From positions 1 to 35,874 of the forward strand of contig CAMELE010000001.1 in assembly GCA_945923475.1 (NCBI GenBank): a stretch of DNA of 35,874 bases. The letters run 5' to 3'. The stretch is from an uncultured Mollicutes bacterium (GTDB taxonomy: Bacteria; Bacillota_I; Bacilli_A; Acholeplasmatales; Anaeroplasmataceae). A program made the translations under genes and the position numbers. Of this stretch, positions 3,130 to 33,846 are shown one piece after another. The first letter of the stretch is position 1, and each line of letters starts with the position of its first letter. The notes beneath the pieces were generated by a model. It saw only the letters and a list, made by a program, of their open reading frames with translations, was not told where the DNA came from and did no database searches.

Positions 3130-3153
3130 TTCCTTTCTTAACTTTCTATATAT

Positions 3154-3182
3154 ATTATATTATATTTTTTATAAAAAATCAA
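3154..3182 (-). promoter_or_regulatory. sigma70-like promoter, minus-strand TTGATT-N17-TATAAT, one copy of the repeated promoter/leader cassette
   Basis: Minus-strand reading: -35 TTGATT (plus aatcaa 3177-3182), 17-nt spacer, -10 TATAAT (plus attata 3154-3159), then leader ATATATAGAAAGTTAAGAAAGGA and the ATG. Confidence 0.6.
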
Positions 3183-3213
3183 AAAAGTTATTTCAAACTA
3201 GACACATTAGAAA

Positions 3214-3290
3214 CATAATTTTAAGTTATGTGCGTTAACCAATTTCGCCAAAACCCCAATTGGAGTTTACAGGATTTGAACCTGTATACC
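3214..3290 (-). tRNA. apparently circularly permuted tRNA-Leu(UAA)-like unit: [variable region + T-arm + acceptor 3' strand + A] - ATT - [acceptor 5' strand + D-arm + anticodon arm]
   Basis: Minus-strand reading GGTAT ACAGG-TTCAAAT-CCTGT AAACTCC A | ATT | GGGGTTT T G GCG-AAATTGGTTAA-CGC A CATAA-CTTAAAA-TTATG. The acceptor halves pair 7/7 with one G-U. Only ~37 nt precede the T-arm and no T-arm follows the anticodon arm, so a normal gene order is impossible. Confidence 0.45.
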
Positions 3291-3322
3291 TTTCTAATGA
3301 AAGAATTGCTGTATGTGTCTTA

Positions 3323-3350
3323 TGGTCCGAGTGAGACGACTTGAACGTCC
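3323..3350 (-). tRNA. orphan tRNA 3' fragment (T-arm GGACG-TTCAAGT-CGTCT + CACTCGG + A + CCA) with no 5' half
   Basis: Only 35 nt separate it from the 3' end of the upstream tRNA-Pro. No complementary 5' acceptor strand found. Confidence 0.35.
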
Positions 3351-3385
3351 GGCTGTCAGTTCAAATCAAACTAAACAGCGCTTCG

Positions 3386-3459
3386 TGGTAGAAGACGTGG
3401 GATTCGAACCCCTATTCAAGCTCCCAAAGCTAGCGTGTTACCATTACACTACATCCTCT
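3386..3459 (-). tRNA. tRNA-Pro (anticodon TGG), CCA encoded
   Basis: D-arm TAGTGTAATGGTAACACG, anticodon stem CTAGC/GCTTG (one mismatch) with loop TTTGGGA (G37). T-arm GGGG-TTCGAAT-CCC. Acceptor pairs with G-U wobbles; +/-1 register ambiguity. Confidence 0.65.
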
Positions 3460-3469
3460 ATATTAAGCC

Positions 3470-3982
3470 TTATTTCAAAGGCTCTAATTTAAACTCTTCG
3501 GTTAAACGATATAAATGTAAAGAAATTTTACGATGACAATTAGGACACAAAATACATAAATTATTTGGATCATTATTGTCATGGTTTTCATCTTTATGAT
3601 GAACTTCTAAAATGCGTTTTTCTTCATCATAGCCGCATACAGCACATTTATGTTCATATAAATCAAAAGCAGTTTGACGATAATTATTTCCTTTAAAAGC
3701 AAAATGATTTTCGCCACTTTTAAATAAGGTATTATTCATACCATTAGCACAACTTCTACTACAATAAACATTTCCAGTAATAGAACGCTTTAATTCTGAA
3801 TTTCTTTTCCAAACTTCTTTTCCACAATTCGCACAATGACATAATGTGCTTCCTTTATGACTGCGACATTCAGATGAACAATAAAATGCTGAATTCTCTT
3901 TTAATTTAGCATTATATCGCTTTAATTCAATCTCATATTCTTTATTACATACTACACATTTCACTTTTACCATTGTCGGCAT
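3470..3982 (-). CDS. HNH homing endonuclease, standard code, about 170 aa
   Basis: ORF track 3470..4045. HNH motif EVHHKDENHDNNDPNNLCILCPNCH plus several CxxC zinc-finger pairs. Start refined to the ATG preceded by AAAGGAG (MPTMVKVKC...); ATGs at 4000 or 4045 are alternatives. Confidence 0.8.
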   Translation of the reverse strand: MPTMVKVKCVVCNKEYEIELKRYNAKLKENSAFYCSSECRSHKGSTLCHCANCGKEVWKRNSELKRSITGNVYCSRSCANGMNNTLFKSGENHFAFKGNNYRQTAFDLYEHKCAVCGYDEEKRILEVHHKDENHDNNDPNNLCILCPNCHRKISLHLYRLTEEFKLEPLK

Positions 3983-4096
3983 ATAACCAACTCCTTTCAT
4001 TATTATATGAAAGTTAGGTAAGAATGATTGTTCTCGAAAGACCAAAATCTGTCCAAAAGATTATGTGAACCCGATCTAGCGATCGAGCGATCGCAA

Positions 4097-4173
4097 TGGT
4101 TGTCTGGGAGGGACTCGAACCCTCGATCTCCCGATTATCAGTCGGACGCTCTAACCAACTGAGCTACCAAACA
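4097..4173 (-). tRNA. tRNA-Ile (anticodon GAT), CCA encoded
   Basis: Acceptor TGTTTGG/CCAGACA, D-arm GCTC-AGTTGGTTA-GAGC, anticodon stem TCCGA/TCGGG with loop CTGATAA, T-arm GAGGG-TTCGAGT-CCCTC. Confidence 0.8.
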
Positions 4174-4380
4174 TTATTTATTTTGAGAAAGAAGTAAAAG
4201 AACTTTTTCATCTTGATAATCCGGAAGACCAATTTCGTAGAAAATTTCTGCGATATAATAATCAGTTCTTCCATCTCTTTTGGACAAATAATTACAAAGA
4301 ATTTCAGCATTTTCTTTGAATTTGAAATCTATGGGAAAATACAAAGGACTATTTTGAATTGCAACACGATAACAAAGCAT
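4174..4380 (-). CDS. hypothetical protein (68 aa)
   Basis: ORF track. AAGGAG RBS upstream of the ATG at 4380. Confidence 0.55.
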   Translation of the reverse strand: MLCYRVAIQNSPLYFPIDFKFKENAEILCNYLSKRDGRTDYYIAEIFYEIGLPDYQDEKVLLLLSQNK

Positions 4381-4397
4381 AGTATTTCTCCTTATTA

Positions 4398-4488
4398 GAA
4401 CAAGACACCATTGATTTACGGCGTTCTACCATTGAACTAATCCCCTATATAGTGGCAGGGGATGAAAGGAATCGAACCTACACTTCCG
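4398..4488 (-). tRNA. second permuted-like tRNA unit: T-arm + acceptor 3' strand ATCCCCT + G + CCA, then CTATAT, then a perfectly complementary acceptor 5' strand AGGGGAT + canonical D-arm. Anticodon arm irregular (6-nt loop)
   Basis: Minus-strand reading ...GTAGG-TTCGATT-CCTTT C ATCCCCT G CCA CTATAT AGGGGAT TA GTTC-AATGGTA-GAAC G CCGTAAATCAATGG.... Too little room upstream of the T-arm for a 5' half. The downstream half runs into the RBS of the 4174..4380 gene. Confidence 0.35.
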
Positions 4489-4575
4489 GCTTGGTATGCA
4501 ATCAAAATTGCTGTTAATGTCTTTAACTTATATATTTATTATATAATATTTTTTTATAAATGTCAAAAAGTTTTA

Positions 4576-5433
4576 TTAAGTAGTTAAAAACGCATTATAA
4601 CCTTTTGATTTTAAATCATTAATTACTTTTATAGCATTTGCTTTGACAGAAAAAGCACCAACTTGAACTTTATAATACTTGCCAATCTTACGAATATAAG
4701 CATTTTTATAACCTGCTCCAATAGTATCAGGTAATGCTTTAATTTTCAATAAGAAAGCGTCAGCATTAGATTTAGATCCAAAAGCACCAAGTTGAACGCG
4801 ATAAATAATTTGCGGTTTAAGGTAAATAGCCACTACATTATCGACAGCGCGATTGCCCCAATCTTTAGTGATACAAGCTCCATTATGAAGAACTTTCGTG
4901 CTACCACCGCCATCAAGGTTAATTGCATAATCAACTTTTAATGCTAAAAGTAAATTCTACATTTCTGTAAATGCCATGCCTGGCTTTTCAATAGCAATTA
5001 AATAAATATTAAATTTATTATATGCTAATACCGTTCTACGAGCTTTATAATTTAACTCTTTGGCATAAGTAATTTGAGTTTTTTTGCCAGCCTTAATTAA
5101 TACTGGATAACCGCTAACAAAATCTTCAAACTTTTCTGTTCCAATTATACCGTATTTCAATTCACCATTAATGATACCAAAGCCTTCTTTATAAGAAGAA
5201 GTGGAATTAATGATTATACCATTATCCATATAATTAAAACAAGTGCTGCCATTATCCATGCTAAAGAAACCACCATTAGTTAAAATAGTAGGTTTAACCG
5301 CGCAACTATCATAGTATTGCTTTAAAGTCTAACGCGGTTGAGCGCATAAGGCCATATCTAACTTACTAATTTCTTCTTTTGGAATTTCAATAATTTTTAC
5401 ATATGAATAATTGCTTGGAGAATATATCTTCAT
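4576..5433 (-). CDS. phosphodiester-glycosidase-like (DUF2233-type) protein with two C-terminal SPOR-like peptidoglycan-binding repeats; 285 aa with two in-frame TAG codons
   Basis: With TAG as sense, track ORFs 4957..5259 and 4576..4833 join upstream sequence into one 858-nt frame. Hallmarks: ILTNGGFF and NLDGGGST (DUF2233-like), YRVQLGAFGSKSNA and YKVQVGAFSVKANA (SPOR-like). ATG at 5433 after AAGGAAGG. Confidence 0.65.
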
Positions 5434-5493
5434 CAAATCACCTTCCTTAATATTTTTAAGGTTTCAATGACTTTTATTAATGAAATATACCCT

Positions 5494-5570
5494 TGGCATC
5501 CCCGGAGCGATTCGAACGCCCGACACAAGGATTAGAAATCCTTTGTTCTATCCAACTGAACTACGGGGAC
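5494..5570 (-). tRNA. tRNA-Arg (anticodon TCT), CCA encoded
   Basis: Acceptor GTCCCCG/CGGGGAT, D-arm GTTC-AGTTGGATA-GAAC, anticodon stem AAGGA/TCCTT with loop TTTCTAA, T-arm GGGCG-TTCGAAT-CGCTC. Confidence 0.8.
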
Positions 5571-5686
5571 AAATTCGCTACAAGACTCTTCATTCTTCTT
5601 AATCCCATATTAAGCGCTTATTGCAAGCAAAAAAGTTGCTGTATGAGTCTTTATTTAGTTAAGAAAGGAAATACCATGATAATGGT

Positions 5687-5775
5687 AGGGCGAGGGAGAC
5701 TCGAACTCTCCATTGAGCGATTTGGCCTGTGAATTAGGCCTTGAACCTAAATCTTCGTAGTACTACCGTTATTTT
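5687..5775 (-). tRNA. tRNA-like element, fold unresolved (alternative T-arms GAGAG-TTCGAGT-CTCCC and TTAGG-TTCAAGG-CCTAA; CCA ends present)
   Basis: Hand folding gives two competing structures. No single canonical cloverleaf could be built. Confidence 0.3.
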
Positions 5776-5842
5776 ACCATTTAAACTACTCACAGATAAG
5801 TCGCCTAGTCTAGCCTTTGACTTACCACCCCAGATCGGCGAG

Positions 5843-6361
5843 TCAAGAAACCCGCGATTTCAACCAATAAACTGACATTCGTTCATTAGGCTGATTTGTC
5901 ATTTCACCTTTTGGCCCTAAGATTTCAGGATAAGGCCAAACATATTCATTAGCAGTCTTTTCATCAGGAAATTCAATTTCTGCATAGCAAAATTTCCCAT
6001 CAACTTCACTAATTTCAATCAAACGATTAGGATTGTAAATATCTTCAACCATGTAATAATCCTTAATAATAGGATTATAACCTTCATGTCGAGTTTTCTT
6101 AATCATTTCATAGAAATCTGAGGAAATTGGCGTTTCAATTTCTTCACGAGAAAGACCATCACCATATTTATAAGTCATCTTATAATCAACTTGATTGGTT
6201 TTAAGATTAATGGCTTTCCGCACTCGAATTTCTTCAAGCACTTTACCATCATTATCAAAGTCAATCATAAGATAGATTTGTTCAATTTTCTTATGACGGA
6301 CACTTTTTTCCTTCATCCAAGAAGGAATATTTTTAATATCAAACTTACGTTCGATTTCCAT
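5843..6361 (-). CDS. CYTH-domain (triphosphate-tunnel metalloenzyme / CyaB-like) protein, 172 aa
   Basis: N-terminal MEIERKF... is the CYTH EXEXK signature. Ends in TGA. Confidence 0.65.
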   Translation of the reverse strand: MEIERKFDIKNIPSWMKEKSVRHKKIEQIYLMIDFDNDGKVLEEIRVRKAINLKTNQVDYKMTYKYGDGLSREEIETPISSDFYEMIKKTRHEGYNPIIKDYYMVEDIYNPNRLIEISEVDGKFCYAEIEFPDEKTANEYVWPYPEILGPKGEMTNQPNERMSVYWLKSRVS

Positions 6362-6500: not shown

Positions 6501-6519
6501 AATTTCACCTACTTACTAT

Positions 6520-6595: not shown

Positions 6596-6596
6596 A

Positions 6597-6684: not shown

Positions 6685-6736
6685 ATTTTCTTATTTTTTA
6701 TATATTTATTATACAATATTTTTTTTATAAAGTCAA

Positions 6737-6780
6737 AAGGGGCCGATGTAAAGTATATTTACTTTACATCGGCCGTCGCG
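6737..6780 (-). terminator. rho-independent terminator hairpin for the AAA+ gene upstream
   Basis: GGCCGATGTAAAGTA-TATT-TACTTTACATCGGCC perfect inverted repeat, followed (minus-strand reading) by a T-rich run and the promoter cassette at ~6690-6735. Confidence 0.6.
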
Positions 6781-8273: not shown

Positions 8274-8682
8274 ATTCTACCTCCTCTGCTTTTCTGGACT
8301 TGGAACCAGCCTATGGTAGCATTAGGTAGGCGACCGCACTTATCGTTCGCTAGGACAAAATTCACGCTCATCGCCAAAAATCAAATCATCAACATCTTTA
8401 AACATATCAGACAATCCTCCTTTTTTATTTAATTTTATGAAACAAAATAGAGAGTAGAAAAACAATTCATTTCTATGGAAGTGAGAGAAAACAACAATCT
8501 ATATATCAAACGAAAGGGGAAATCAAACAGAAAGATAAGTAAGAAAATGAACTAGATGTAAAAGACTCTCTCTATTGTATAGTCTTTTATTTCTATATAT
8601 TTAAATATATAGAAGAGTAGCCTTTCTAACAGGCATTCCAACAGCCTCGAGCAGCAAAGAGGTTCCTCATTTGTTGGTCTTT

Positions 8683-11018: not shown

Positions 11019-11198
11019 AATTTAAATCTTCCTTTCTTAACTTTCTATAAATATTATAACTTATTTTTTATAAAATGTCAAAAGATTAAAAGACCAACCA
11101 AGAAGCGATATTTGTTAACGATGGTCGCCACTCCACCGCCGTCAATACTCATAAATGCTTATCATTTTCACATTAACCTACTAATTAAAGGAGGTGAC

Positions 11199-12380: not shown

Positions 12381-12532
12381 ATAAAAGAAGGACTTTTTAA
12401 AATCCTTACTTTATATATTTATTATATTATATTTTTTTTAAAAAATCAACTTTTCTCTTTTACCCAAGTTTTTTATTTTCTTTTTTCTTTCTTCGTCTTA
12501 TATAAATATTATATAATATTTTTTATAAAATG

Positions 12533-12715
12533 TCAATAAGGTCTTTGAATTGGCATTAAATCATCTTCTGAAAGAAGCCACTTTTCACCATGTTCATCAA
12601 GGACTTCAATCTGATAATTTAATACTCGAATGACAGTGCATTTAAGATACTGTCTACGATAACAACGGCCGCGATAAGGGACAAAACAATAAGAATTACC
12701 AACTTCAATATTCAT
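12533..12715 (-). CDS. hypothetical protein (60 aa)
   Basis: ORF track. Promoter/leader cassettes on both sides. Confidence 0.5.
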   Translation of the reverse strand: MNIEVGNSYCFVPYRGRCYRRQYLKCTVIRVLNYQIEVLDEHGEKWLLSEDDLMPIQRPY

Positions 12716-12805
12716 TATTTATTTTCTCCTTTCTCAACTTTCTATATATATTATATTATATATTTTTAATAAAATCAAAAAAGTTCTTTTTGTTTAAGTA
12801 GATTA

Positions 12806-12890
12806 AATGGCACCAGGGGTACGAGTCGAACGCATTACCACGAGATTTGGAGTCACGCCCCAGTCCCTCCGGGATTAAGGTTCCCCTGAT
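12806..12890 (-). tRNA. tRNA-like element (~83 nt): acceptor ATCAGGG/CCCTGGT + G + CCA and D-arm plausible; anticodon arm unresolved
   Basis: T-arm-like TGCG-TTCGACT-CGTA. No clean 5-7-5 anticodon stem-loop. Confidence 0.3.
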
Positions 12891-12912: not shown

Positions 12913-12983
12913 GTCCGGAAAATGGATTTGAACCATTAACTTAATCTTGAAGGATTATGACCTAACCTTTAGTCTATTCTGGA
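12913..12983 (-). tRNA. tRNA-like element with a 6-nt anticodon loop (CTTCAA; would read UCA if a 7th nucleotide is recruited); possibly a pseudogene
   Basis: Acceptor TCCAGAA/TTCCGGA (one A-C mismatch), D-arm GACT-AAAGGTTA-GGTC, stem TAATC/GATTA, T-arm AATGG-TTCAAAT-CCATT. Confidence 0.3.
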
Positions 12984-13061
12984 AGTTATTTTTGCTGTAA
13001 AGGTCTTTTTTTATTTTATAAATATATTATATATTATTTTTTTTAAAATGTCAAAAAATTT

Positions 13062-15787: not shown

Positions 15788-15838
15788 AGTTTATTCTCCT
15801 ATCTTTTATCTTATATTTATATTATAACATTATTTTTT

Positions 15839-16639
15839 TTATTTGTCAATTGAGTCTTCTTCCGCCTCGGGGATAGGATTATTCTGCTTACTTGCTTGAA
15901 CGGCTTTATCTATAACACGAGAAAATATAAATGCGGTTTCACAATAATGACACGTCCCTTGTCGCTGACAACGCTGACCGCAATTGATGCGGTTTGGGCC
16001 AAAATCTTCGGGGATTCCACGATTATCCGCATTATAATTTAAATTAGTTAATAAAAGGTTTAGATTACCTTGCCAATGACCACTTTGATAGATATCCAAA
16101 AGCACAGCTTCTTTAGAGAGCGCAGGTTCATCGAATTCTAAAGTTGAGACATATGTTCCATAATAATCTACGTCTTCCGGTCGGACGTAGGAACCGCATA
16201 TTCCATTTTCTCTTGGAAGGTTATCGTCATAACACTTATTCGCAATCATACGAATTGGAACTTTTGCTTGTTGATTTAATTGTCTTAAATCAAATGTAAG
16301 TGGTGCTCCGATGAAAAGTTCGCTAACTCCAAGATCAAGAAGAACGCGGACTTCTGCCCATGTGGTAGCAGGATAAGCAAAATAATACTTTACATCGATA
16401 TTACATCCATTGCGGGTAAGCATATCTTCAAATGCTACAATAAGATCGACTTTATCCTTAAATGAATCAATCTCTTCCCAATTCACTTCTTCATTTTTGC
16501 GGATTCTGATAATATATCGTTTATTTGGGAATTTCTAAATCATATCATACATAATATTTATATCATTATAATTAACCATAAGTTCATCAGCCTTCTCGCG
16601 GACAACATCAGGTTGGCGCACAGAAACACAATATTTCAA
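15839..16639 (-). CDS. hypothetical protein, 266 aa, with one in-frame TAG and a probable TTG start
   Basis: The track ORF 15839..16486 extends upstream in frame through one TAG to a TTG 9 nt after AAAGGAG. An in-frame TGA lies just 5' of that, so no further extension. 801 nt, an exact multiple of 3. C-terminal CGQRCQRQGTCHYCE. Confidence 0.55.
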
Positions 16640-16663: not shown

Positions 16664-16692
16664 ATTATAACAAAAAACTCCAATTTTGTCAA
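16664..16692 (-). promoter_or_regulatory. perfect sigma70 consensus promoter TTGACA-N17-TATAAT driving the 15839..16639 gene
   Basis: Minus-strand reading TTGACAAAATTGGAGTTTTTTGTTATAAT, then TATATTATAAAGGAGTGATATAATTTG. Confidence 0.65.
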
Positions 16693-17227: not shown

Positions 17228-17317
17228 AATTTTTACCTTAACCTTTCATAAATAACAATTTTATTTTTAGGAAGTATTTCTTCCTTTACCTTACATAAAT
17301 ATTATATATTATTTTTT

Positions 17318-18922
17318 TTAAAAAATCAAAGAAGGTCTTTGATTTGGGTTGGTGCCAATAGCCCAAGAAATAAATTCCTTTTCACTAATATTAAAGAGGT
17401 CTCTGCCCTTTTTAGTGAGAGTTTCTCCATCGACATAATAATTAGAGCGCCAACCATCTCTATCTTCTTCAATTTCACCATTGAAGAAGGTTTTTACTTT
17501 TTTATCCTCACAGCAATCCCAACAAATATCTGTATAGAACCCAACTGGCTTCTTCTGGAATCGAAGGCGGATTTGCTTCATGTCATCATAGTCTTTGCGG
17601 ACTCCGCAACAAGGACAAACTTCTGTGTTTTCGTCATAACAATAAGCGCAGTAAGTTCTTCCATCGACATTGTAAGTGTCATCGACATAAACAATATCAC
17701 CACACTTATCGCACTTTACTGCACCCGAACAACTTGTGCAAATGGTCATTTCTGCGTTATTCTCTCTATCATCGAGGAGAGAATCATCAAGAAGCTCTCC
17801 GCAACACATACACTCAGATTCACCCGAGTAGTTAAGATCAACGCTTTTGTCCGTAGGAATTTTAGTGGAAACGTAAGCATTATGCTCTGAGTAGATATCA
17901 TTATACATGAAATTGGTATCAAGATTGAAATAAATATTTCTGTCAAGCTCGCCAATAATGTTATTACTGTAATTATGAATCTGATTTAAATACTTGGTAT
18001 AAGGGCCAAAACCAAGATTCTGCTCAGCAAGTTTTTTAATCCAAGCAAGACAAATACTTTCAAGATTTTCATTACAATAAGGATAACCCTTAATGCCAAG
18101 GATAAGGCTTTCATCTACGATGAAAAGTTCGCGCCAACGTTTACTATTCCACATTACAGGCTTACCAGCCTTATACCAAAGTTCCATATCCTTATCAGAT
18201 TTAAGGTAAGCTTCGAGGATAATGGGAGAATTCATCATCTCAACGGTTCCCTGACGGTATTCACCACCGCCATTCTGCCATCTCATACAAGAATCCCAAC
18301 CGCAATCATTATCACTCATAGTGATATAGTCAAGAGGATGAATAGAAAGACAGAGTTCACCAGAGATATTTTTCTGATTAAGGAACTGAGAATGAGCGAT
18401 ACGGAACTTTTCATAGATATCGCGGTCAATCTCCAAGATATCACTCATCTTACCAAGCATCTTACTAAGCTTCATACCCTTATTAATCATAAGAGTTTTA
18501 TTGTTATAAGTGAATTTAAAAGATTCCCCATCATAAATGTTAGACATTAAAGGCTCAACATCCAAAAGATTTACCAGATTAAAATACTGAGTATTAGAGA
18601 TGTCTGTTTTAAGATAAAGATCTCTTACCTTATTATTAAAGGTATTTCGGAATTCATATCCATCACCATTTCTGCCGAAATAATCATAAAAATCATCACT
18701 CATATCTTCATAAGTGCGAGAATAACTTACCTTACGAGAAATGATAAGATTATCTCCCAACATTTTATAAAGACTCTGCTTATTATAGGCCCAAAAACGG
18801 AGGATGTAGTCGAGAGATGCCTTCATATCGGAACTATCTCCACCGAGGCCCGCAAAATTACGGATATACCATTCAATCTTTTCGCAATCTTCTTTGGAAA
18901 GGAGTTCAAATAAATTAGCCAT
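17318..18922 (-). CDS. large Cys-rich protein, paralog B (534 aa)
   Basis: GELCLSIHPLDYITMSDN...WDSC...GEYRQG...WNSKRWR core. C-terminal CMCCG...CTSCSGAVKCDKCG...CAYC...CPCCG...CWDCC. Confidence 0.75.
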   Translation of the reverse strand: MANLFELLSKEDCEKIEWYIRNFAGLGGDSSDMKASLDYILRFWAYNKQSLYKMLGDNLIISRKVSYSRTYEDMSDDFYDYFGRNGDGYEFRNTFNNKVRDLYLKTDISNTQYFNLVNLLDVEPLMSNIYDGESFKFTYNNKTLMINKGMKLSKMLGKMSDILEIDRDIYEKFRIAHSQFLNQKNISGELCLSIHPLDYITMSDNDCGWDSCMRWQNGGGEYRQGTVEMMNSPIILEAYLKSDKDMELWYKAGKPVMWNSKRWRELFIVDESLILGIKGYPYCNENLESICLAWIKKLAEQNLGFGPYTKYLNQIHNYSNNIIGELDRNIYFNLDTNFMYNDIYSEHNAYVSTKIPTDKSVDLNYSGESECMCCGELLDDSLLDDRENNAEMTICTSCSGAVKCDKCGDIVYVDDTYNVDGRTYCAYCYDENTEVCPCCGVRKDYDDMKQIRLRFQKKPVGFYTDICWDCCEDKKVKTFFNGEIEEDRDGWRSNYYVDGETLTKKGRDLFNISEKEFISWAIGTNPNQRPSLIF

Positions 18923-18939
18923 ATCTTATCAACCTCTTT

Positions 18940-19040
18940 TTAATATCTTTCTTAACTTTATATATATATTATATTATATTTTTTTATAAAAATAAAGAAA
19001 GCCCTTTGCGGTCAATCAAAGGGCTTTCTTGCGAAAGGGG
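18940..19040 (-). promoter_or_regulatory. promoter/leader cassette preceded by the terminator hairpin AAAGCCCTTTG...CAAAGGGCTTT
   Basis: Plus strand ...tctttcttaactttatatatatattatattatatttttttataaaaataaagaaagccctttgcggtcaatcaaagggctttc. Confidence 0.55.
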
Positions 19041-21077: not shown

Positions 21078-21110
21078 AATAAATAACCTCTTTTTTTATT
21101 TTCTATATAT

Positions 21111-21139
21111 ATTATATATTATTTTTTTAAAAATGTCAA
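21111..21139 (-). promoter_or_regulatory. perfect sigma70 consensus promoter TTGACA-N17-TATAAT (cassette copy)
   Basis: Minus-strand reading TTGACATTTTTAAAAAAATAATATATAAT, followed by ATATATAGAAAATAAAAAAAGAGG and the ATG at 21077. Confidence 0.65.
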
Positions 21140-21431: not shown

Positions 21432-21512
21432 ATAAAAAAAGTCCTTTCTTAACTTTCTATAAATATTATATAATAATATTTATAAAAAATCAAAAAAGGA
21501 CTTTTAATTTAT

Positions 21513-23970: not shown

Positions 23971-24076
23971 AAGCGTCTCTCCTTTTTTTTATCTTCTCTT
24001 TAACTTTCTATAAATATTATAATATATTTTTTTATAAAAATAAAGAAAGACCTTATGATTTACATAAGGTCTTTAA

Positions 24077-24355
24077 TCATCGCCGTATAGAGAAATGGAG
24101 CAAACCCGCAATCATTTCGCGGTTCTTAATATCTTTCTTGAGAGTCTCAGGGCAACAACCAGTAGTTTCCTCAATATAAGAAATGAGTTCCGCATTGCGG
24201 GCACGCGCTTCCGCGAGCTCTTTCTTCGCGGTTTCCAGTTCCTCTTGGGCTTCCACAAGTTCTCTACAAAGTTGAAGATTACGCGCTTGAAGTTTAACCT
24301 TCTCGCGCTCAAAAGCAAGGTCTTTCGCGCTCTTCTTATACTTACTCGTTGCCAT
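24077..24355 (-). CDS. coiled-coil protein (92 aa)
   Basis: ORF track. Heptad-like LQARNLQLCRELVEAQEELETAKKELAEARARNAEL. Confidence 0.6.
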   Translation of the reverse strand: MATSKYKKSAKDLAFEREKVKLQARNLQLCRELVEAQEELETAKKELAEARARNAELISYIEETTGCCPETLKKDIKNREMIAGLLHFSIRR

Positions 24356-24941
24356 TAAGATTCATCTCCTTATTATAAAGCTCCTCGTAAATCTGACAAG
24401 TCTCAGGATAAACATATACGCCATACTGATTATAATATTCAATAGCGAAATGCTCCTCAAAGGTTTCAATCTGAGCATCAATCTCAATGTTAGAATAACC
24501 CTTAACCTTGATATACACCGGATCGCCAACACGTTCGTTAGAGACAGAATTATAATAATCAATGCGATAATACTCTTCGCGCATTTCATTATCCTCTTCC
24601 TCTTCAAGGCCATTAGCTCGATCCCAAAGAGTGTCAAGCATCTGCTCATAAGGGAAGAAACCAAACTCAGGGAACTTTTTACCGAAGACCATTTCAATGC
24701 CTTCGGGATACTCTTCGAACTCAGACACTTCAAATGCACTGAGAAAATCGTTGACATTGCTATATTCAATTTCCTCATTGGTGCCGATCTGATAAATAAA
24801 TGGCAAACCACATTCAATATCTGCAACGATCGCATTCACAGTCGCAGTATAGTGCTCGTATTCCTTTTCGTCCATAATAGAAAAGCCATCAATAAACATT
24901 TCATCAGCCCAGCTATCTTTATAATTAACATAATAAAACAT
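24342..24941 (-). CDS. acidic hypothetical protein (199 aa)
   Basis: ORF track. Confidence 0.65.
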   Translation of the reverse strand: MFYYVNYKDSWADEMFIDGFSIMDEKEYEHYTATVNAIVADIECGLPFIYQIGTNEEIEYSNVNDFLSAFEVSEFEEYPEGIEMVFGKKFPEFGFFPYEQMLDTLWDRANGLEEEEDNEMREEYYRIDYYNSVSNERVGDPVYIKVKGYSNIEIDAQIETFEEHFAIEYYNQYGVYVYPETCQIYEELYNKEMNLNGNE

Positions 24942-24962
24942 ATTGATTACTCCTCCACAATC

Positions 24963-25277
24963 TTAATGAACATCAATACCTTCAACCGCATTTTTGCAAT
25001 TCCAAAGAATATCGAAAGCCTTTGCGATCTCTTCCGTGTTAACTAACTTGGCAGGAGAGAGATCTATTGCGTCAAAAGCTTCTACGACATTGCTTTCTTC
25101 TTCGAGGTCTTCATAATGAATGGTCTTAAAAATATAAGTTTCATCATGACAAATTGCAATCTTATTAACAAAAAGGCAGAAACTATACTTATGATTATCA
25201 CCTTTGCAGATGACAAACTTATCGTGATAGCCATCGTCAAAAACGATTGCATTAATAAACTTCTCCATAATTATCAT
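24963..25277 (-). CDS. hypothetical protein (104 aa)
   Basis: ORF track. Confidence 0.6.
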   Translation of the reverse strand: MIIMEKFINAIVFDDGYHDKFVICKGDNHKYSFCLFVNKIAICHDETYIFKTIHYEDLEEESNVVEAFDAIDLSPAKLVNTEEIAKAFDILWNCKNAVEGIDVH

Positions 25278-25304
25278 TCCCTTTCTTTCATTAACATTTG
25301 TTGC

Positions 25305-25487
25305 TTATTCTTTTACATTTCGAATAAAACTTTCGAGAATTGAAATGTTCAAAGTAAGTTCATCAAGCTCATCGCTATCAATGATACCTTGCCAGTCAAG
25401 CATATCAACATAGGTGTCAATTGTTTCAAGAGCCTCAACTGCGTCTTCCTTAGTAAAGGGCTTTTCTACCAACTTCATAATTATCAT
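25305..25487 (-). CDS. hypothetical protein (60 aa)
   Basis: ORF track. Cassette at 25488-25550. Confidence 0.5.
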   Translation of the reverse strand: MIIMKLVEKPFTKEDAVEALETIDTYVDMLDWQGIIDSDELDELTLNISILESFIRNVKE

Positions 25488-25723
25488 TCCCTTTCTTAAC
25501 TTTCTATATATATTATATATTATTTTTTATAAAAAATCAATAAAACTCTTTTTTGGAGGTATCATACAATCAAGGATTTAGCGTATATAATATAGCCTAT
25601 TCAAGTTTGTTAGCAGAACTATCATACCCACTTATAATCTAACCTTATTGAATAGCGTCCTTGAACAGTATGGACTGAAACTTTATCCTATTGGGGAAGA
25701 GAATGCCCTTCCAGAGTTTTATA

Positions 25724-26289: not shown

Positions 26290-26573
26290 TAATTACATAC
26301 CTCCGTATAATAAGTTCCAAGAGAGCCATCTGCGTTAATCCAAGAGACAATCAGCACGTAAACCATTTCGATGCCGATTGTATCGAAAACGCAGGGGATT
26401 TCAATATTATACTCGCGGATTCGACCCTCGCCCTTAGCCTTAGAGAAAAGAATTTCAACCGCGTTGGCGATATGAATGCCATCCTTAGAAACGAGCATTG
26501 CGTATTCATCATCTTCTGGATCAGTATACTTTCTACCAATTAGATCCCAAAGCTCTACATACATAATTTTCAT
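26289..26573 (-). CDS. hypothetical protein (94 aa)
   Basis: ORF track. Confidence 0.6.
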   Translation of the reverse strand: MKIMYVELWDLIGRKYTDPEDDEYAMLVSKDGIHIANAVEILFSKAKGEGRIREYNIEIPCVFDTIGIEMVYVLIVSWINADGSLGTYYTEVCN

Positions 26574-26661
26574 TTCCTTTCTTAACTTTATATATATATT
26601 ATATTATATTTTTTTATAAAAATAAAATAAGGACTTATGAATTAACATAAGTCCTTATTAT

Positions 26662-29450: not shown

Positions 29451-29461
29451 AATTATTCTCC

Positions 29462-29782: not shown

Positions 29783-29880
29783 AATTTTTATTTCCTTTCT
29801 TTACTTTATATATATATTATATATTATTTTTTATAAAAAATCAAAAAAGGATTTGCGATTTGCGCAAATCCTTTTAAAAA

Positions 29881-30400: not shown

Positions 30401-30666
30401 TTGAATGCCTCCTCAGAAATAAAATTTTTGAGTTGTCTTAGAATTGCGGTACCATTAGAATACCTATCATCAAAGACATACTCATAATGAGATTTATCAT
30501 TCATATAAAAGTCAAGTTTTGTTTCAAAAGTTTCAGCAGAAATACTGTCATCATCTGAATTATCCTTGGTAGTATGAGAAACAAGAACTGTGACGATTTC
30601 ATTTACATTGAAGAAAACGCTGTCGCCATTAGACATTTTTAAATAAATTAAATCACCTTTGTTCAT
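30397..30666 (-). CDS. hypothetical protein (89 aa)
   Basis: ORF track. Confidence 0.6.
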   Translation of the reverse strand: MNKGDLIYLKMSNGDSVFFNVNEIVTVLVSHTTKDNSDDDSISAETFETKLDFYMNDKSHYEYVFDDRYSNGTAILRQLKNFISEEAFK

Positions 30667-30667
30667 T

Positions 30668-31267
30668 TTATTTCTCCACGATATAATCTTTCGCTACATC
30701 CGTTCCTTCTGGAATATAAAGATAAGCTCGCGTTGACTTAGAGCAGACAAAGAACCACTCTCTCCAATCGCCATAACGCGGGAGACGCTTCTCAATGTGC
30801 GGAACCTGATTAGAGTAAACAATTACTGTGTCATTCACGGGATGGGTCTCAGTACTCATAATGCCATCAATGCTGAGTGTAAGATAAGTATAATAAACAC
30901 TCTCACCTTCAAAGGCACGGTAAGTATAGATATTGCCATCGTTATCTATACTTGTTAACTCTTGGGCTTCCGTAATCATATAATCATACTTAGAATAGTC
31001 ATCAACAGCCGAAGACATCATAACTCCGCCAAACATGCTTACGGCGAGGTAAAGACAAACGCCGATCCAAAAGGCAGGAATAATTTGACGGAGAATATCA
31101 ACGCGGTCGCGATGAGACCAATTGCGGAAATGCTTAGCCTTAGGATCGGAAAGAGTGCTATAATACCTATAACTACGATAAGCAGAATGAATGGCGAAAA
31201 TCAGAAAAATAATTAAGGTCGGTAGAACAAATCCGCCCACCAGCGTTTTCAAGAAGAAGATAAACAT
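30668..31267 (-). CDS. membrane protein (199 aa, 2-3 TM)
   Basis: MFIFFLKTLVGGFVLPTLIIFLIFAI...IPAFWIGVCLYLAVSMFGGVM. Confidence 0.65.
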   Translation of the reverse strand: MFIFFLKTLVGGFVLPTLIIFLIFAIHSAYRSYRYYSTLSDPKAKHFRNWSHRDRVDILRQIIPAFWIGVCLYLAVSMFGGVMMSSAVDDYSKYDYMITEAQELTSIDNDGNIYTYRAFEGESVYYTYLTLSIDGIMSTETHPVNDTVIVYSNQVPHIEKRLPRYGDWREWFFVCSKSTRAYLYIPEGTDVAKDYIVEK

Positions 31268-31296
31268 ATTTAAAAACTCCTTTAAAGAATAGGTTT

Positions 31297-31390
31297 AAGT
31301 TTATCGCAACAATTGAAATCTCTCATACAGCCATTTTCTTCGTTAAAACAAGAGCAACCTTTCTTGCACGTCTTTTCGAGAGATAACGGA
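31297..31390 (-). pseudogene. duplicated 3'-end fragment of the Cys-rich gene at 32194..32643, lying just downstream of the HNH gene
   Basis: 31301-31335 matches 32219-32253 at 34 of 35 positions, with further similarity beyond. Encodes ...KTCKKGCSCFNEENGCMRDFNCCDKLKPIL*, compared with ...LCYSEENGCMRDFNCCNNIKYILGN* in the intact gene. Confidence 0.55.
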
Positions 31391-32119
31391 TTAGTCGATA
31401 TTATTTCGATTTTTTGACGGAATTAGATCGTCAATAGTTAAATCTTCATATTGTAAATATGAGATACGAATTAATGGTATATTATGTTCTTTGCACCATT
31501 TATTTTTATATTCGTCTCTATCCTAAATTTTTTTAATGTCTTCTCCCCATCCTCCATCTGGTTCTGTATGTTGACGGCCATCATATTCTATAAGATATTT
31601 ATTATCAACATAAAAATCAAACCGCAAAGGATAGTTAGTTTCAGGATTACGACAATCTTTAAATTTTTTTTCCATTTCAAAAGGGATATTATTCTCAGTT
31701 AATAATTGAGAAATTTTTAATTCTCCAATTGAAATTTTTAAACATCCACAAGAATTTACTTTATGAGTTCGTAATTCATAAGGTCTTACGTAGACAATGT
31801 TTCCGCAATCACACTAACACTATATTTTATAAGTGCCACTTGGTGATCTATGATTAAAGTCTCTTTTTATTGCGGTTAATTTACCGAAGCGATGACCTAT
31901 AATATCATCACTTTTATGACGATTCATTCGTTCTTCTTGAATTAAACATCCGCAAGACTTACATCCGCCCGAAGTTAAAAGATTTGTATAAGCGAAATGC
32001 TCTTTACCACAATCACAACGGCATTTCCAAACAATATTACCATGTTTACGTTCAGAAGTTTCTTCTATAACAGTTAGCTTTCCAAAACGCTAACCAATTA
32101 AATTTTGTTTTTTTGCCAT
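31391..32119 (-). CDS. HNH-type homing endonuclease-like protein (paralog of 28264..29163; two zinc-finger modules plus a PD-(D/E)XK-like C-terminus), 242 aa with four in-frame TAG codons
   Basis: MAKKQNLIG*RFGKLTVI...VWKCRCDCGK...CKSCGC...IIGHRFGKLTAI...KI*C*CDCGN...NSCGCL...RFDFYVDNKYLIEYDGRQH...KKI*DRDEYK. 729 nt, an exact multiple of 3, ends TAA. Confidence 0.75.
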
Positions 32120-32193
32120 AAATAAAATCTCCTTTTACAAGTTTTTGCGACTCCCCTTAATATTAAGGAAATTTTATTTATATTTTATGAAAC

Positions 32194-32643
32194 TTAATTG
32201 CCCAAAATATACTTAATATTATTGCAACAATTGAAATCTCTCATACAGCCATTCTCTTCTGAATAACAAAGACAGCCATTTTGGCATGTAGTTTTTACAA
32301 TGTCGGGATTACGGACATTCGTGACGGCTTGCATATTTCCAACGATTTCTCGCTTTTGGATCATTTTTGGCGTGTCGGGAGAAGCATCAAATGCGCAGTT
32401 CACATTTTGTTCACAATTTGCGCATGTGCTAAGTTTTGCGAAACATTTATCGCAATAAGTGTTTCCTTTGTCGTCAATAATCATTTGCTTATGGAAAATT
32501 GGAGTATGACAAACTTTACAAATATACTTAGTGTCGCTAAAGCTATTACAAACGGGCTGATTGGGGTCGGGTGAATATCCTACTATTGGACAAGCGCCAT
32601 TAGACAAAAGGTAAGCGCAATTCTTACATAGGAAAGTCATCAT
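32194..32643 (-). CDS. Cys-rich protein (149 aa, many CxxC pairs)
   Basis: ORF track. Its 3' end is the source of the duplicated fragment at 31297-31390. Confidence 0.65.
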   Translation of the reverse strand: MMTFLCKNCAYLLSNGACPIVGYSPDPNQPVCNSFSDTKYICKVCHTPIFHKQMIIDDKGNTYCDKCFAKLSTCANCEQNVNCAFDASPDTPKMIQKREIVGNMQAVTNVRNPDIVKTTCQNGCLCYSEENGCMRDFNCCNNIKYILGN

Positions 32644-32894
32644 AGCATTTTAGCAGAATATGGAGCATCTTCGCCGTCAAACTTTAGAATTTTATCGGCA
32701 AGATCGTGATTGACGCGCAAAGGGCCATCGTCAAGAGGGGTAAATGCGATAGTGATAAGATCGTCGAAATATTCTTCGGCCCAACGGCCGGCTTCTGCGA
32801 GGGTTTCCGCGAAGATAAAACCGCATGTAAGTCTATCCATTTTATCAGAATTGTCCCAATAGCGTGCTTCATAATAAACAGGGCATTGTTTCAT
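32640..32894 (-). CDS. hypothetical protein (84 aa)
   Basis: ORF track. Confidence 0.6.
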   Translation of the reverse strand: MKQCPVYYEARYWDNSDKMDRLTCGFIFAETLAEAGRWAEEYFDDLITIAFTPLDDGPLRVNHDLADKILKFDGEDAPYSAKML

Positions 32895-32910
32895 ATTTAT
32901 TTTCCTTTCT

Positions 32911-33249
32911 TTAAGAAATTGTAGAGATTAGAAAAATCTCGGGATCATCAAGGCTTTCGATGGGGATTTTGAGAAACTTTGCGTAAGCTCCCTTCATTGT
33001 GTCATTAAGGCGATAATATTCCTGCGGAGCGATGAAAATGTTGTCGATGCGGACGGCCTCGCCAGCGGAAGACTTACCGAGAAGATAGCCGAAGATAGGA
33101 TTTTCGTCATTATCATAGCAGCTTGCGCGATGCCAATAACCTTCCTCGGTGAGCTGTTCAATGGTCTCAGCCATATTATCATAGTTTTCAAGAAGGTTCT
33201 TGGAGACTTTGTAGCCACACACGAGCTTAGAACCAAAATCAACAGACAT
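32911..33249 (-). CDS. hypothetical protein (112 aa)
   Basis: ORF track. Confidence 0.6.
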   Translation of the reverse strand: MSVDFGSKLVCGYKVSKNLLENYDNMAETIEQLTEEGYWHRASCYDNDENPIFGYLLGKSSAGEAVRIDNIFIAPQEYYRLNDTMKGAYAKFLKIPIESLDDPEIFLISTIS

Positions 33250-33250
33250 A

Positions 33251-33448
33251 TTACTTATCCTCCTTAAAAATAGAATTGATAAAAGTGTTATACTCAGTGG
33301 GTTTTACATAATACGCGGTTTTTGTTTCATTATCCCAAAAAACCATCACAAGTTTATCCGACCCAGAATTCTTTACGGAAATTGAATGAATATGGGTCGT
33401 ATTGATGATATGAGTTTGACCTTGATTATCAATAAGTTTAGCAAGCAT
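33251..33448 (-). CDS. hypothetical protein (65 aa); last gene of the minus-strand block
   Basis: ORF track. Promoter/leader cassette at ~33455-33520. Confidence 0.55.
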   Translation of the reverse strand: MLAKLIDNQGQTHIINTTHIHSISVKNSGSDKLVMVFWDNETKTAYYVKPTEYNTFINSIFKEDK

Positions 33449-33846
33449 TTTTTATCACCTTTAATAGTTTTTCTTTATTTTATATTTATATTATATATTA
33501 AAATTTAATAAAAATCAATAAATGTTTTTTGAATTAAATAAAAAATAAACCGCGCTTGGGCAAACATATTAAATGTAATTAAAATAGGTAAAAATTGTAG
33601 GCAATTTTTCATAGTCGCCTATGTGGATATTAGAGATCGCTATGCTTAGGACAGAAGGAATATTAGACGGGAAAACCGCGTTAGTTAAAATTGTAGAAAA
33701 TTTTTACCATTTTGTATTAAAATGTAAGACAAATTATTACTTTTAGAAAAATATTTAAAAATTTGTGGGCAAACGCAATTAAAAGTATTAAAAAAATTTT
33801 TATTTATTATAGAACAATTAAAAAGAAAAGGAGGAGGACTTATAAA

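What the first reader, a model, noticed from the sequence alone, without database searches (positions are those of the whole stretch)
3130..33520. ~55-bp promoter/leader/RBS cassette repeated about 18 times, frequently a perfect sigma70 consensus
- Copies on the plus strand at about 3130, 4530, 6690, 11030, 12400, 12490, 12720, 13005, 15790, 17280, 18940, 21090, 21440, 23990, 25490, 26580, 29790 and 33460.
- On the minus strand the cassette reads a -35 box (TTGACA, TTGATT or TTTATT variants), a 17-nt A/T spacer, the -10 box TATAAT, then ATATATAGAAAGTTAAGAAAGGA(N6-9)ATG.
- Most copies are immediately preceded by a perfect inverted-repeat terminator hairpin with a different sequence at each site.
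- This gives a highly modular transcription-unit architecture with near-identical translation initiation regions.
Basis: seen in the sequence. Interest (0 to 1): 0.6.

Follow-up and report, generated by a model that had tools for sequence, protein, structure and literature searches.

The report
Repeated early-promoter cassettes in a phage
The repeats are 18 near-identical bacterial-type promoters, about half fused to a standard ribosome-binding leader, that start the early genes and tRNA clusters of a large uncultivated phage; this is a familiar design for big lytic phages, though unusually uniform and well conserved here.

Summary
The repeat is real: 18 same-strand copies at the listed positions, where chance predicts none. 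Each has a -35 box (TTGACA/TTGACT in 7, TTGATT in 8, TTTATT in 3), a spacer of exactly 17 A/T bases, TATAAT, then ATATATA(G/T)AA. Two details are overstated. Only 8-9 copies carry the GAAAGTTAAGAAAGGA leader and an ATG 34-35 nt after the -10. Only 5 of 18 have a strong hairpin directly upstream. At least five copies drive RNA genes (tRNAs, a Y-RNA-like RNA), not proteins.

Across 14 related phage contigs the cassette is the most conserved sequence in the region (97.9%, against 95.5% at second and 83.2% at third codon positions). It is also a recombination substrate: four relatives lack four genes and carry a chimeric cassette at the junction.

Best reading: host sigma-A/sigma-70-type early promoters with a standard short 5'UTR, partly fused to terminators. 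They are functionally equivalent to the PeSL cassettes of T4-type phages and the early promoters of Kayvirus/SPO1-like phages. This is a new member of a known kind, of modest interest.

Side observations: probable TAG sense-codon recoding, a minimal twister ribozyme, and a divergent YrlA-type Y RNA.

The parts
33449..33518 (-). Cassette copy (-35 TTGATT 33518-33513, -10 33495-33490), 42-nt gap to ATG 33448; most divergent spacer
   Evidence: (E 1.2e-4)
29783..29875 (-). Terminator hairpin 29875-29845, then cassette (-35 TTGATT 29844, -10 ends 29816), leader subtype, ATG 29782
   Evidence: hairpin dG -16.1
26565..26659 (-). Terminator hairpin 26659-26626 whose T-tract forms the -35 (TTTATT), -10 ends 26598, leader subtype, ATG 26564
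   Evidence: dG -17.9
25479..25540 (-). Cassette (-35 TTGATT, -10 ends 25512), leader subtype, ATG 25478; recombination partner of copy 24016 in relatives
23971..24074 (-). Terminator hairpin 24074-24046, then cassette (-35 TTTATT, -10 ends 24016), 46-nt gap to ATG 23970
   Evidence: (dG -17.1)
21432..21493 (-). Cassette (-35 TTGATT, -10 ends 21465), leader subtype, ATG 21431
21078..21139 (-). Cassette, perfect consensus TTGACA-17-TATAAT (-10 ends 21111), different A-rich leader, ATG 21077
18923..19030 (-). Terminator hairpin 19030-18995, then cassette (-35 TTTATT, -10 ends 18968), partial leader, ATG 18922 (534-aa gene)
   Evidence: dG -21.2
17228..17329 (-). Cassette (-35 TTGATT overlaps the end of the 534-aa gene, -10 ends 17301), 74-nt gap with a small hairpin, ATG 17227
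15788..15849 (-). Cassette, perfect consensus with TGn extended -10 (-10 ends 15821), GTG start 15787 (peptidase-like gene)
12984..13054 (-). Cassette, perfect consensus (-10 ends 13026), no ribosome-binding site; drives odd tRNA at 12983-12913
12716..12778 (-). Cassette (-35 TTGATT, -10 ends 12750), leader subtype, ATG 12715
12508..12536 (-). Cassette core, perfect consensus; upstream member of a tandem promoter pair ahead of tRNA-Asn
12381..12449 (-). Cassette (-35 TTGATT, -10 ends 12421), 41 nt to tRNA-Asn 12380-12306 and the tRNA cluster behind it
11019..11081 (-). Cassette, perfect consensus (-10 ends 11053), leader subtype, ATG 11018 (or 11011), then tRNA-Glu/Glu/Asp/Met/Met
6685..6774 (-). 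Terminator hairpin 6774-6741, then cassette (TTGACT, -10 ends 6708), 24 nt to tRNA-Leu 6684-6597 and tRNA-His
   Evidence: dG -24.7
4401..4566 (-). Cassette, perfect consensus (-35 4566, -10 ends 4538), directly driving a divergent YrlA-like (Y RNA, tRNA-mimic) element at about 4537-4401
3121..3182 (-). Cassette (-35 TTGATT, -10 ends 3154), exact 29-mer leader, ATG 3120
16664..16692 (-). Non-family perfect sigma-70 consensus promoter (TTGACA-17-TGTTATAAT) with a non-A/T spacer; terminator 16797-16769 lies upstream
35511..35539 (+). Weak family-like copy on the opposite strand, near the strand-switch region
   Evidence: E 5.4e-4

Best explanation
The cassettes are early promoters read by the host's housekeeping RNA polymerase holoenzyme (sigma-70 family; sigma-A in a probable Clostridia or other Firmicute host).

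Inferred mechanism:
1. RNA polymerase binds the -35 box, the exact 17-nt A/T spacer and TATAAT.
2. The alternating A/T stretch TATAATATATATA melts easily.
3. Transcription most likely starts at the A 7 nt after the -10.
4. In about half of the copies the transcript begins with a fixed, unstructured, purine-rich and nearly C-free 5'UTR of about 27 nt. Its AGAAAGGA pairs with the 3' end of 16S rRNA and places the ATG 34-35 nt after the -10.
5. The other copies launch tRNA clusters or a Y-RNA-like RNA.
6. In five copies an upstream intrinsic terminator ends the previous unit, and its T-tract merges into the -35/UP region.

Shown here: because the same ~55 nt recur every ~1.7 kb, they also act as patches of homology where recombination removes or adds gene modules.

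Not shown here: RNA polymerase binding, the start site, timing and promoter strength.
For: Identity and placement:
- 18 copies against 0 expected by chance.
- All copies are on the coding strand, at gene or tRNA starts, and all spacers are exactly 17 nt.
- 6 family copies are 12/12 matches to TTGACA-17-TATAAT.
- Within ~45 nt of A/T, the only G/C positions are those of the -35 consensus.

Conservation across 14 relatives (85-98% identical):
- -10 99.9%, -35 99.1%, spacer 98.0%, leader 97.1%.
- For comparison: codon positions 1/2/3 are 93.7/95.5/83.2%, tRNAs 93.6%, other non-coding DNA 93.9%.
- Locus-specific variants are kept in 684 of 725 cases, so each copy is conserved in place rather than homogenised.

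Broader sample:
- Distant phages keep the -35 and -10 at 17 nt with completely different spacers.
- In 147 sites fetched by the core alone, the conserved block runs to 10 nt past the -10, with A at the predicted start (83%). A start codon most often follows 33-34 nt after the -10.
- The 5'UTR is short, mostly unstructured and carries an 8-nt anti-SD match.

Recombination:
- Relatives L063, L064, L074 and L080 lack window 24041-25495. The junction sequences read in L063 and L064 are chimeric cassettes with different crossover points.
- 0, 1 or 2 genes lie between the same two cassettes in different genomes.
- 12 of 63 breakpoint clusters fall in the 6.2% of the window occupied by cassettes, p=5e-4.

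Precedents with experimental support: PeSLs and Kayvirus early promoters.
Against: - No transcription start site or expression data exist, and the host is unknown. It is hinted only by the binning of similar contigs into Clostridia and Erysipelotrichia MAGs.
- Conservation of the whole spacer and of 10 nt after the -10 goes beyond what sigma-70 recognition alone normally requires.
- 11 of 18 copies have weakened -35 boxes (TTGATT, TTTATT).
- Long, A/T-rich, highly conserved early promoters are also typical of virion RNA polymerases of jumbo phages.
- The breakpoint enrichment uses a crude null, because indels favour intergenic DNA anyway. Many indels in this region are caused by endonuclease-gene insertions instead.
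Confidence: 0.8

Rival explanations
1. The cassettes are promoters for a phage-encoded transcription apparatus rather than unmodified host sigma-A holoenzyme. This could be a virion or non-virion RNA polymerase as in AR9/phiKZ-like jumbo phages, or a phage sigma or activator that reads the conserved spacer and start region.
For: - The conserved block is long (about 45-55 nt), A/T-rich and nearly invariant, including the spacer (98%) and 10 nt after the -10.
- AR9 virion-RNAP early promoters are likewise extended A/T-rich motifs with a fixed start site (AAATATATATTAT-N6-G).
- Related contigs are about 100-200 kb, close to jumbo size.
- Many copies have a weak -35.
Against: - The motif is bipartite, with exact 17-nt spacing and a canonical TTGACA in 6 copies.
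- The only G/C positions in the cassette are those of the -35 consensus.
- Distant phages keep the -35 and -10 but have unrelated spacers.
- A non-family perfect sigma-70 promoter with a TGn extension also occurs (16692-16664).
- The nearest protein relatives are Herelleviridae-like phages, which use host sigma-A for early genes (own knowledge for SPO1).
- No RNA polymerase or sigma domains appeared among about 17 large proteins sampled near cassettes. That sample is small.
Confidence: 0.1
2. The invariant start region and leader (ATATATAGAAAGTTAAGAAAGGA) is mainly the recognition site of a phage-encoded post-transcriptional regulator. Candidates are a RegB-like endoribonuclease or a RegA-like translational repressor that switches all early messages off together. 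The promoter function is real but does not explain the leader's conservation.
For: - The identical 29-nt -10/leader/SD occurs in phages whose neighbouring proteins are only 25-60% identical to the window's, or not detectably related, and behind unrelated spacers.
- The leader is 97.1% conserved across relatives.
- A Shine-Dalgarno sequence alone needs only about 8 nt.
Against: - That sample was selected by exact match to the 29-mer.
- In a sample fetched by the promoter core alone, only 12 of 147 sites have this leader within 2 mismatches. What is general is only a C-free purine-rich tract.
- No candidate regulator was identified.
- The leader is explained adequately as start site, unstructured UTR and strong SD.
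Confidence: 0.12
3. The repeats are primarily mobile or recombinational elements (site-specific recombination or homing sites, or self-spreading cassettes), and their promoter likeness is secondary.
For: - Chimeric cassettes sit at deletion junctions, and gene number varies between fixed cassettes.
- Breakpoints are enriched at cassettes.
- The identical 29-mer occurs in distantly related phages.
- PeSLs were proposed to be mobile.
Against: - Crossover points differ between relatives (after the -10 in L063, within the spacer in L064). That indicates ordinary homologous recombination, not a fixed site.
- Orthologous copies keep their locus-specific variants in 94% of cases, so there is little homogenisation or turnover.
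- Every copy is oriented with, and placed at, a gene start.
- Most indels in the tRNA region are tied to endonuclease genes instead.
Confidence: 0.05

Closest known systems
PeSL (promoter-early stem-loop) cassettes of T4-type phages (phi1/RB49, PST/T4, nt-1/KVP40)
   Same: Composite intergenic repeat made of an A/T-rich upstream region, a near-consensus sigma-70 promoter with a 17-nt spacer, a stem-loop terminator, and a Shine-Dalgarno sequence with start codon. Tens of copies per genome, mostly ahead of small genes of unknown function. They coincide with insertions, deletions and replacements between close relatives. Here: 18 copies in 30 kb, chimeric cassettes at deletion junctions, and breakpoint enrichment.
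   Different: - A stem-loop accompanies only 5 of 18 copies, always upstream of the -35, never inside the promoter.
- The spacer, start region and leader are far more uniform.
- About a third of the copies drive tRNA or Y-RNA-like genes.
- The phage is not T4-like (nearest protein hits are Herelleviridae-like), and the host is probably a Firmicute.
- Mini-circles were not tested.
Early sigma-A promoters of large Firmicute myoviruses (Kayvirus vB_SauM-515A1; SPO1 host-takeover module, the latter from own knowledge)
   Same: Dozens of strong consensus promoters (58 in Kayvirus) with a 17-bp spacer, used by host RNA polymerase, with the start site about 6 nt after the -10 and intrinsic terminators delimiting units. 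The window's ATPase is about 40% identical to proteins of such phages.
   Different: Kayvirus early promoters have a TRTGn extended -10 and no reported conserved spacer or leader. Here the extension is absent in all but one family copy. The spacer, 10 nt past the -10 and (in half the copies) the whole 5'UTR are conserved.
Virion-RNA-polymerase early promoters of AR9/phiKZ-like jumbo phages
   Same: Long, A/T-rich, highly conserved early promoter motif with a fixed start site.
   Different: Those motifs are single-block and have no -35 element. Here the motif is bipartite with TTGACA at exactly 17 nt, and the spacer is replaceable in distant phages.
Intergenic promoter repeats of halovirus HF2
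   Same: Repeated intergenic A/T-rich elements of 29-58 bp that carry promoters (abstract listed, PMC8707807).
   Different: An archaeal virus with archaeal promoter architecture. Only the principle of repeated promoter modules is shared.

Membership tests
Sigma-70-family (housekeeping sigma) promoter | -10 hexamer matching TATAAT | tested here: met
   18 of 18 copies are exactly TATAAT. 99.9% conserved across relatives.
Sigma-70-family (housekeeping sigma) promoter | -35 hexamer matching TTGACA | tested here: met
   TTGACA in 6 copies, TTGACT in 1, TTGATT in 8, TTTATT in 3. 99.1% conserved. The 3 weakest coincide with terminator T-tracts.
Sigma-70-family (housekeeping sigma) promoter | Spacer of 17 +/- 1 bp | tested here: met
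   All 18 spacers are exactly 17 nt.
Sigma-70-family (housekeeping sigma) promoter | Located upstream of, and oriented with, the transcribed gene | tested here: met
   All 18 lie on the coding strand, 24-74 nt before a start codon or RNA gene. The exceptions are the tandem-upstream copy 12508 and the Y-RNA-like target of copy 4538.
Sigma-70-family (housekeeping sigma) promoter | Transcription starts 6-8 nt after the -10, dependent on host holoenzyme | not testable with these tools
   No RNA data are available. A is favoured (83%) at position 7 after the -10 in 147 sites, which is only suggestive.
PeSL cassette (T4-type phages) | Near-consensus early promoter with an A/T-rich upstream region, SD and start codon at the 3' end | tested here: met
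   SD and start codon are present in 12-13 of 18 copies.
PeSL cassette (T4-type phages) | Stable stem-loop (terminator/attenuator) inside or next to every promoter | tested here: not met
   A strong hairpin is present at only 5 of 18 copies, always upstream of the -35.
PeSL cassette (T4-type phages) | Association with indel or replacement breakpoints between close relatives | tested here: met
   12 of 63 breakpoint clusters fall in 6.2% of the sequence, p=5e-4. Chimeric cassettes at a 4-gene deletion. 0, 1 or 2 genes between fixed cassettes.
PeSL cassette (T4-type phages) | Host genome is a T4-like myovirus | tested here: not met
   No DNA match to cultured phages. The best protein relatives are Bcp1, EF24C and Staphylococcus myoviruses.
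PeSL cassette (T4-type phages) | Formation of encapsidated mini-circles by recombination between neighbouring cassettes | not testable with these tools
   This needs read-level or PCR data.
Intrinsic (rho-independent) terminator | G+C-containing hairpin followed by a T-tract, at the end of the upstream gene | tested here: met
   Five sites: 29875-29845, 26659-26626, 24074-24046, 19030-18995 and 6774-6741, with 12-15 bp stems and the T-tract merging into the -35. The other 13 copies do not have one.
Virion-RNAP early promoter (AR9/phiKZ type) | Single extended A/T-rich block without a -35 element; phage encodes split beta/beta' RNA polymerase subunits | tested here: inconclusive
   The motif here is bipartite with a canonical -35. 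No RNAP domains appeared in about 17 sampled large proteins, but complete genomes were not available.

The most novel reading that the evidence does not exclude
The cassette may be more than a good sigma-A promoter. It could be a standardised expression module that moves between unrelated large gut phages and is read by a dedicated phage factor. That factor could be a nuclease or repressor acting on the invariant 5' leader, or a polymerase modifier reading the T(n)A(n) spacer, giving one-switch control of all early genes. The supporting observations are an identical 29-nt -10/leader/SD shared by phages with 25-60% identical or unrelated neighbouring proteins, and a cassette more conserved than second codon positions.
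Probability: 0.12. Interest if true: 0.6.

Novelty: new member of a known kind. Interest (0 to 1): 0.33.

Why it matters
For this clade of large, uncultivated, probably Clostridia-infecting phages, the cassette gives a ready-made map of early transcription units. It also supplies a strong, compact promoter/5'UTR part that could be tested for use in Firmicutes. It extends the PeSL idea (regulatory cassettes that double as recombination substrates for gene shuffling) from T4-type phages of Gram-negative hosts to an unrelated phage group. The degree of conservation, higher than in protein-coding positions, is a useful marker for finding such phages in metagenomes. None of this changes current understanding of phage transcription.

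Tried and rejected
1. Megablast and blastn of the window and of one cassette against 50,697 cultured phage records found nothing. The 534-aa protein also had no tblastn match. No cultured relative or host could be named.
2. A genome-collection scan for the leader found only 8 MAG contigs, three of them 148-180 kb and probably mis-binned phages. There was no evidence that the leader copies a host gene.
3. I suspected a circularly permuted tRNA gene downstream of cassette 4538 (3' half, CCA, linker, 5' half; covarying acceptor strands). This was rejected as a novelty. Rfam's YrlA (Y RNA-like, tRNA mimic) model matches the relatives' version end to end, and YrlA has this architecture.
4. ARAGORN on artificial permuted joins called tRNAs, but only after 1,800 joins were tried, so I discounted it.
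6. The search for RNA polymerase or sigma domains near cassettes was negative, but the sample was small. No Ro60/TROVE partner for the Y-RNA-like element was found in the window.
7. Homogenisation by gene conversion as the main cause of uniformity was rejected. Locus-specific variants persist in 94% of comparisons.

Full report
**What the window is.** The 35.9-kb window has about 35% G+C, and almost all genes lie on the minus strand. Its first 13 kb carry 21 tRNA genes. The rest is mostly small genes without known function, plus an AAA ATPase, a peptidase-like protein and a phosphoesterase. There is no nucleotide match to 50,697 cultured phage records. The ATPase is about 40% identical to proteins of Bacillus, Enterococcus and Staphylococcus myoviruses. 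Close relatives (85-98% DNA identity) are IMG/VR contigs of about 100-197 kb, mostly from one human-associated data set. The window is therefore part of a large, uncultivated, lytic-type phage. It corresponds to roughly the first 40 kb of its closest relative's 190,907-bp contig (inferred from the coordinates).

**Checking the observation.** All 18 listed sites carry, on the minus strand, a -35-like hexamer, exactly 17 A/T-rich bases and TATAAT.
- A profile built from these sites recovers the same 18 copies (E from 5e-11 to 1.2e-4) and nothing else on that strand. It also finds one weak plus-strand copy at 35511-35539.
- A further perfect consensus promoter with an unrelated spacer and a TGn extension lies at 16692-16664.
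- Shuffled sequence gives no matches, either to the 29-mer (8 observed) or to a degenerate core (13 observed).
- The -35 box is TTGACA in 6 copies, TTGACT in 1, TTGATT in 8 and TTTATT in 3. Six family copies are 12/12 consensus matches.

- The leader ATATATAGAAAGTTAAGAAAGGA occurs within 3 mismatches in only 8 copies. An ATG 34-35 nt after the -10 is found in 8-9 copies, and three more have gaps of 42-46 nt.
- A strong hairpin directly upstream exists at only 5 of 18 copies. In the three TTTATT copies, the 'weak -35' is simply the T-tract of that terminator.

**What the copies drive.** Twelve or thirteen copies precede protein genes. The copy at 13026 precedes an odd tRNA. The tandem pair at 12508 and 12421 precedes tRNA-Asn and the cluster behind it. 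The copy at 6708 precedes tRNA-Leu and tRNA-His. The copy at 4538 precedes a structured RNA. I first took that RNA for a circularly permuted tRNA gene. It is better explained as a divergent YrlA-type Y RNA, a known tRNA mimic:
- The relatives' version matches Rfam YrlA end to end (33.5 bits, E 4.7e-6, below the gathering score of 69).
- The window's version scores 18 bits.
- YrlA RNAs are known from bacteria and phages.

**Conservation.** I aligned the window to 14 related contigs and scored, at each position, the fraction of relatives identical to the window.

| Sequence class | Identity across relatives |
|---|---|
| Cassette, -35 through SD | 97.9% |
| -10 hexamer | 99.9% |
| -35 hexamer | 99.1% |
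| Spacer | 98.0% |
| Leader | 97.1% |
| Codon positions 1 / 2 / 3 | 93.7% / 95.5% / 83.2% |
| tRNA genes | 93.6% |
| Other non-coding DNA | 93.9% |

Where a copy departs from the family consensus, the relatives keep that local variant in 684 of 725 cases. When they change, 30 of 41 changes are towards the consensus. The uniformity is therefore maintained mainly by purifying selection on each copy, not by rapid homogenisation among copies.

**Breadth.** The exact 29-nt -10/leader/SD is present in 52 stretches of IMG/VR contigs. Some of these phages have only 25-60% identical or unrelated neighbouring proteins and quite different spacers, yet keep a -35 box at 17 nt. The degenerate promoter core is present in at least 120 stretches from many metagenomes. 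In 147 distinct sites fetched by the core alone:
- The conserved block continues as TATAAT-ATATATA-(G/T)-AA, with A (83%) at the position where sigma-70 promoters usually start.
- It is followed by a purine-rich, nearly C-free tract.
- A start codon most often follows 33-34 nt after the -10.
- The exact GAAAGTTAAGAAAGGA leader is one sub-type (12 of 147 within 2 mismatches).

The predicted 5'UTR of about 27 nt is mostly unstructured. Its AGAAAGGA matches 8 nt of the Firmicute-type anti-Shine-Dalgarno sequence (the anti-SD sequence is from textbook knowledge).

**Recombination.** Homology blocks between the window and its relatives end in or beside cassettes more often than expected: 12 of 63 breakpoint clusters fall in 6.2% of the sequence, binomial p=5e-4. 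The null is crude because indels prefer intergenic DNA. Two events are clear at the sequence level.
- Relatives L063, L064, L074 and L080 lack window 24041-25495 (four genes). The junctions read in L063 and L064 carry a single chimeric cassette: the upstream half of copy 25512 joined to the leader and gene of copy 24016. The crossover lies after the -10 in L063 and within the spacer in L064.
- Between the orthologues of copies 21465 and 21111 there are 0 genes (L061), 1 (the window) or 2 (L062, L065).

About a third of relative-specific insertions (33 of 79) have a cassette inside or at an edge. The other indels, especially among the tRNAs, are insertions of endonuclease-type genes.

**Mechanism and rivals.** The best-supported reading is host sigma-A/sigma-70-type early promoters fused to a standard short 5'UTR. 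They are sometimes joined to the terminator of the preceding unit, and they double as recombination substrates.

The main rival is recognition by phage-encoded transcription machinery, because virion-RNAP early promoters of AR9-like jumbo phages are also long, A/T-rich and invariant. Four points argue against it:
- The motif is bipartite, with a canonical -35 at a fixed 17 nt.
- The cassette's only G/C positions are those of TTGACA.
- Distant phages swap the spacer freely.
- No RNA polymerase or sigma domains appeared among about 17 large neighbouring proteins. That sample is small.

A leader-binding regulator remains possible but is not required by the data.

**Comparison with known systems.** The closest described element is the PeSL of T4-type phages. 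It combines an A/T-rich upstream region, a consensus sigma-70 promoter, a stem-loop and SD/ATG, occurs about 50 times per genome, lies ahead of genes of unknown function and marks shuffling breakpoints. The cassette works like a PeSL but is not a member in the strict sense. The stem-loop is absent from 13 of 18 copies, and the phage is not T4-like. Experimentally mapped early promoters of Kayvirus (58 copies, 17-bp spacer) are the nearest precedent among phages of Firmicutes.

**Verdict.** The feature is real and correctly interpreted in outline. It is a new member of a known kind, of modest interest.

Noticed in passing
window-wide; tRNA at 1206-1295 (-); genes 5433-4576, 16579-15839, 29163-28264, 32119-31391, 10012-9371, 2055-1300 (all -): TAG is probably read as a sense codon.
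- A tRNA with anticodon CUA is encoded.
- TAG ends only 1 of 42 standard ORFs of at least 80 aa (TAA 32, TGA 9).
- Reading TAG as sense raises minus-strand ORF coverage from 21.8 to 27.1 kb and fills ORF-free gaps.
- Pfam domains (NAGPA, GIY-YIG) run straight through in-frame TAGs.
- TAGs in two genes are kept as TAG in all 9 relatives.
- In distant homologues TAG aligns mostly with another stop, K, Q or E, which is compatible with Gln but unproven.
- The suppressor tRNA is 90 nt with a long variable arm, which is odd for a tRNA-Gln.
- None of the genes placed first after a cassette contains a TAG.
   Followed up: partly
window 4401-4537 (-); L039 4534-4655 (-) and orthologues in L002, L013, L015, L023, L036, L043, L049: A tRNA-like RNA with permuted order lies directly after cassette 4538: T-arm, 3' acceptor strand, G-CCA, short linker, 5' acceptor strand, D-arm, all enclosed by a leader/trailer helix.
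- The acceptor and T stems covary.
- The relatives' version folds well (z=-2.8) and matches Rfam YrlA (Y RNA-like) end to end at 33.5 bits, below the gathering score of 69.
- The window's version is more degenerate (18 bits).
- It is likely a divergent phage Y RNA. Its 7-bp acceptor with encoded CCA resembles the RNase P-cleaved mycobacterial YrlA.
- No Ro60/TROVE gene was found in the window.
   Followed up: yes
window 8278-8328 (-): A sub-threshold match to the type-P1 twister self-cleaving ribozyme (41.1 bits, gathering score 67.2, E 3e-8 on the short region). It keeps the conserved core nucleotides and lacks only the optional P3 hairpin. It lies between tRNA-Phe and tRNA-Ser in a stretch conserved in relatives.
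   Followed up: partly
window 2055-1300, 10012-9371, 29163-28264, 32119-31391, 3982-3470 (all -): Free-standing mobile-type genes: two GIY-YIG endonucleases, one HNH endonuclease, and two paralogous proteins with repeated LxGxxFGxLT and CxCxCG motifs. The two GIY-YIG genes and the two repeat proteins are absent from most relatives at exactly these positions. All four are rich in in-frame TAG (4-5 each).
   Followed up: partly
window 12806-12890 (-) and 3183-3257 (-): Uncalled tRNA-like remnants lie immediately upstream of cassettes 12750 and 3154. One is a T-loop/acceptor-like 3' end ...GGTTCGACTCGTACCCCTGGTGCCA. The other is a 25-bit sub-threshold tRNA match. ARAGORN finds nothing there. The tRNA at 12913-12983 has an abnormal anticodon-loop call.
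   Followed up: partly
L121 3970-5226 (-), L051 4701-6110 (-), L144 3094-4638 (-), L168 3262-5769 (+), L184, L088, L011: Genes near the same promoter type in this phage group include RNA ligases, a DUF2828/DUF7788 protein, a major-vault-protein-like protein, DNA gyrase A and B, a NAMPT-like enzyme and an SPFH/flotillin protein. The RNA ligases, many tRNAs, a Y-RNA-like RNA and a ribozyme together suggest a substantial investment in RNA metabolism and repair.
   Followed up: no
window about 32000-35874: GC skew changes sign here, and a family-like promoter appears on the plus strand at 35511-35539. Relatives differ by 1-2 kb replacements between 33259 and 35245. They carry two more tandem cassettes about 1 kb beyond the window's right end.
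   Followed up: no
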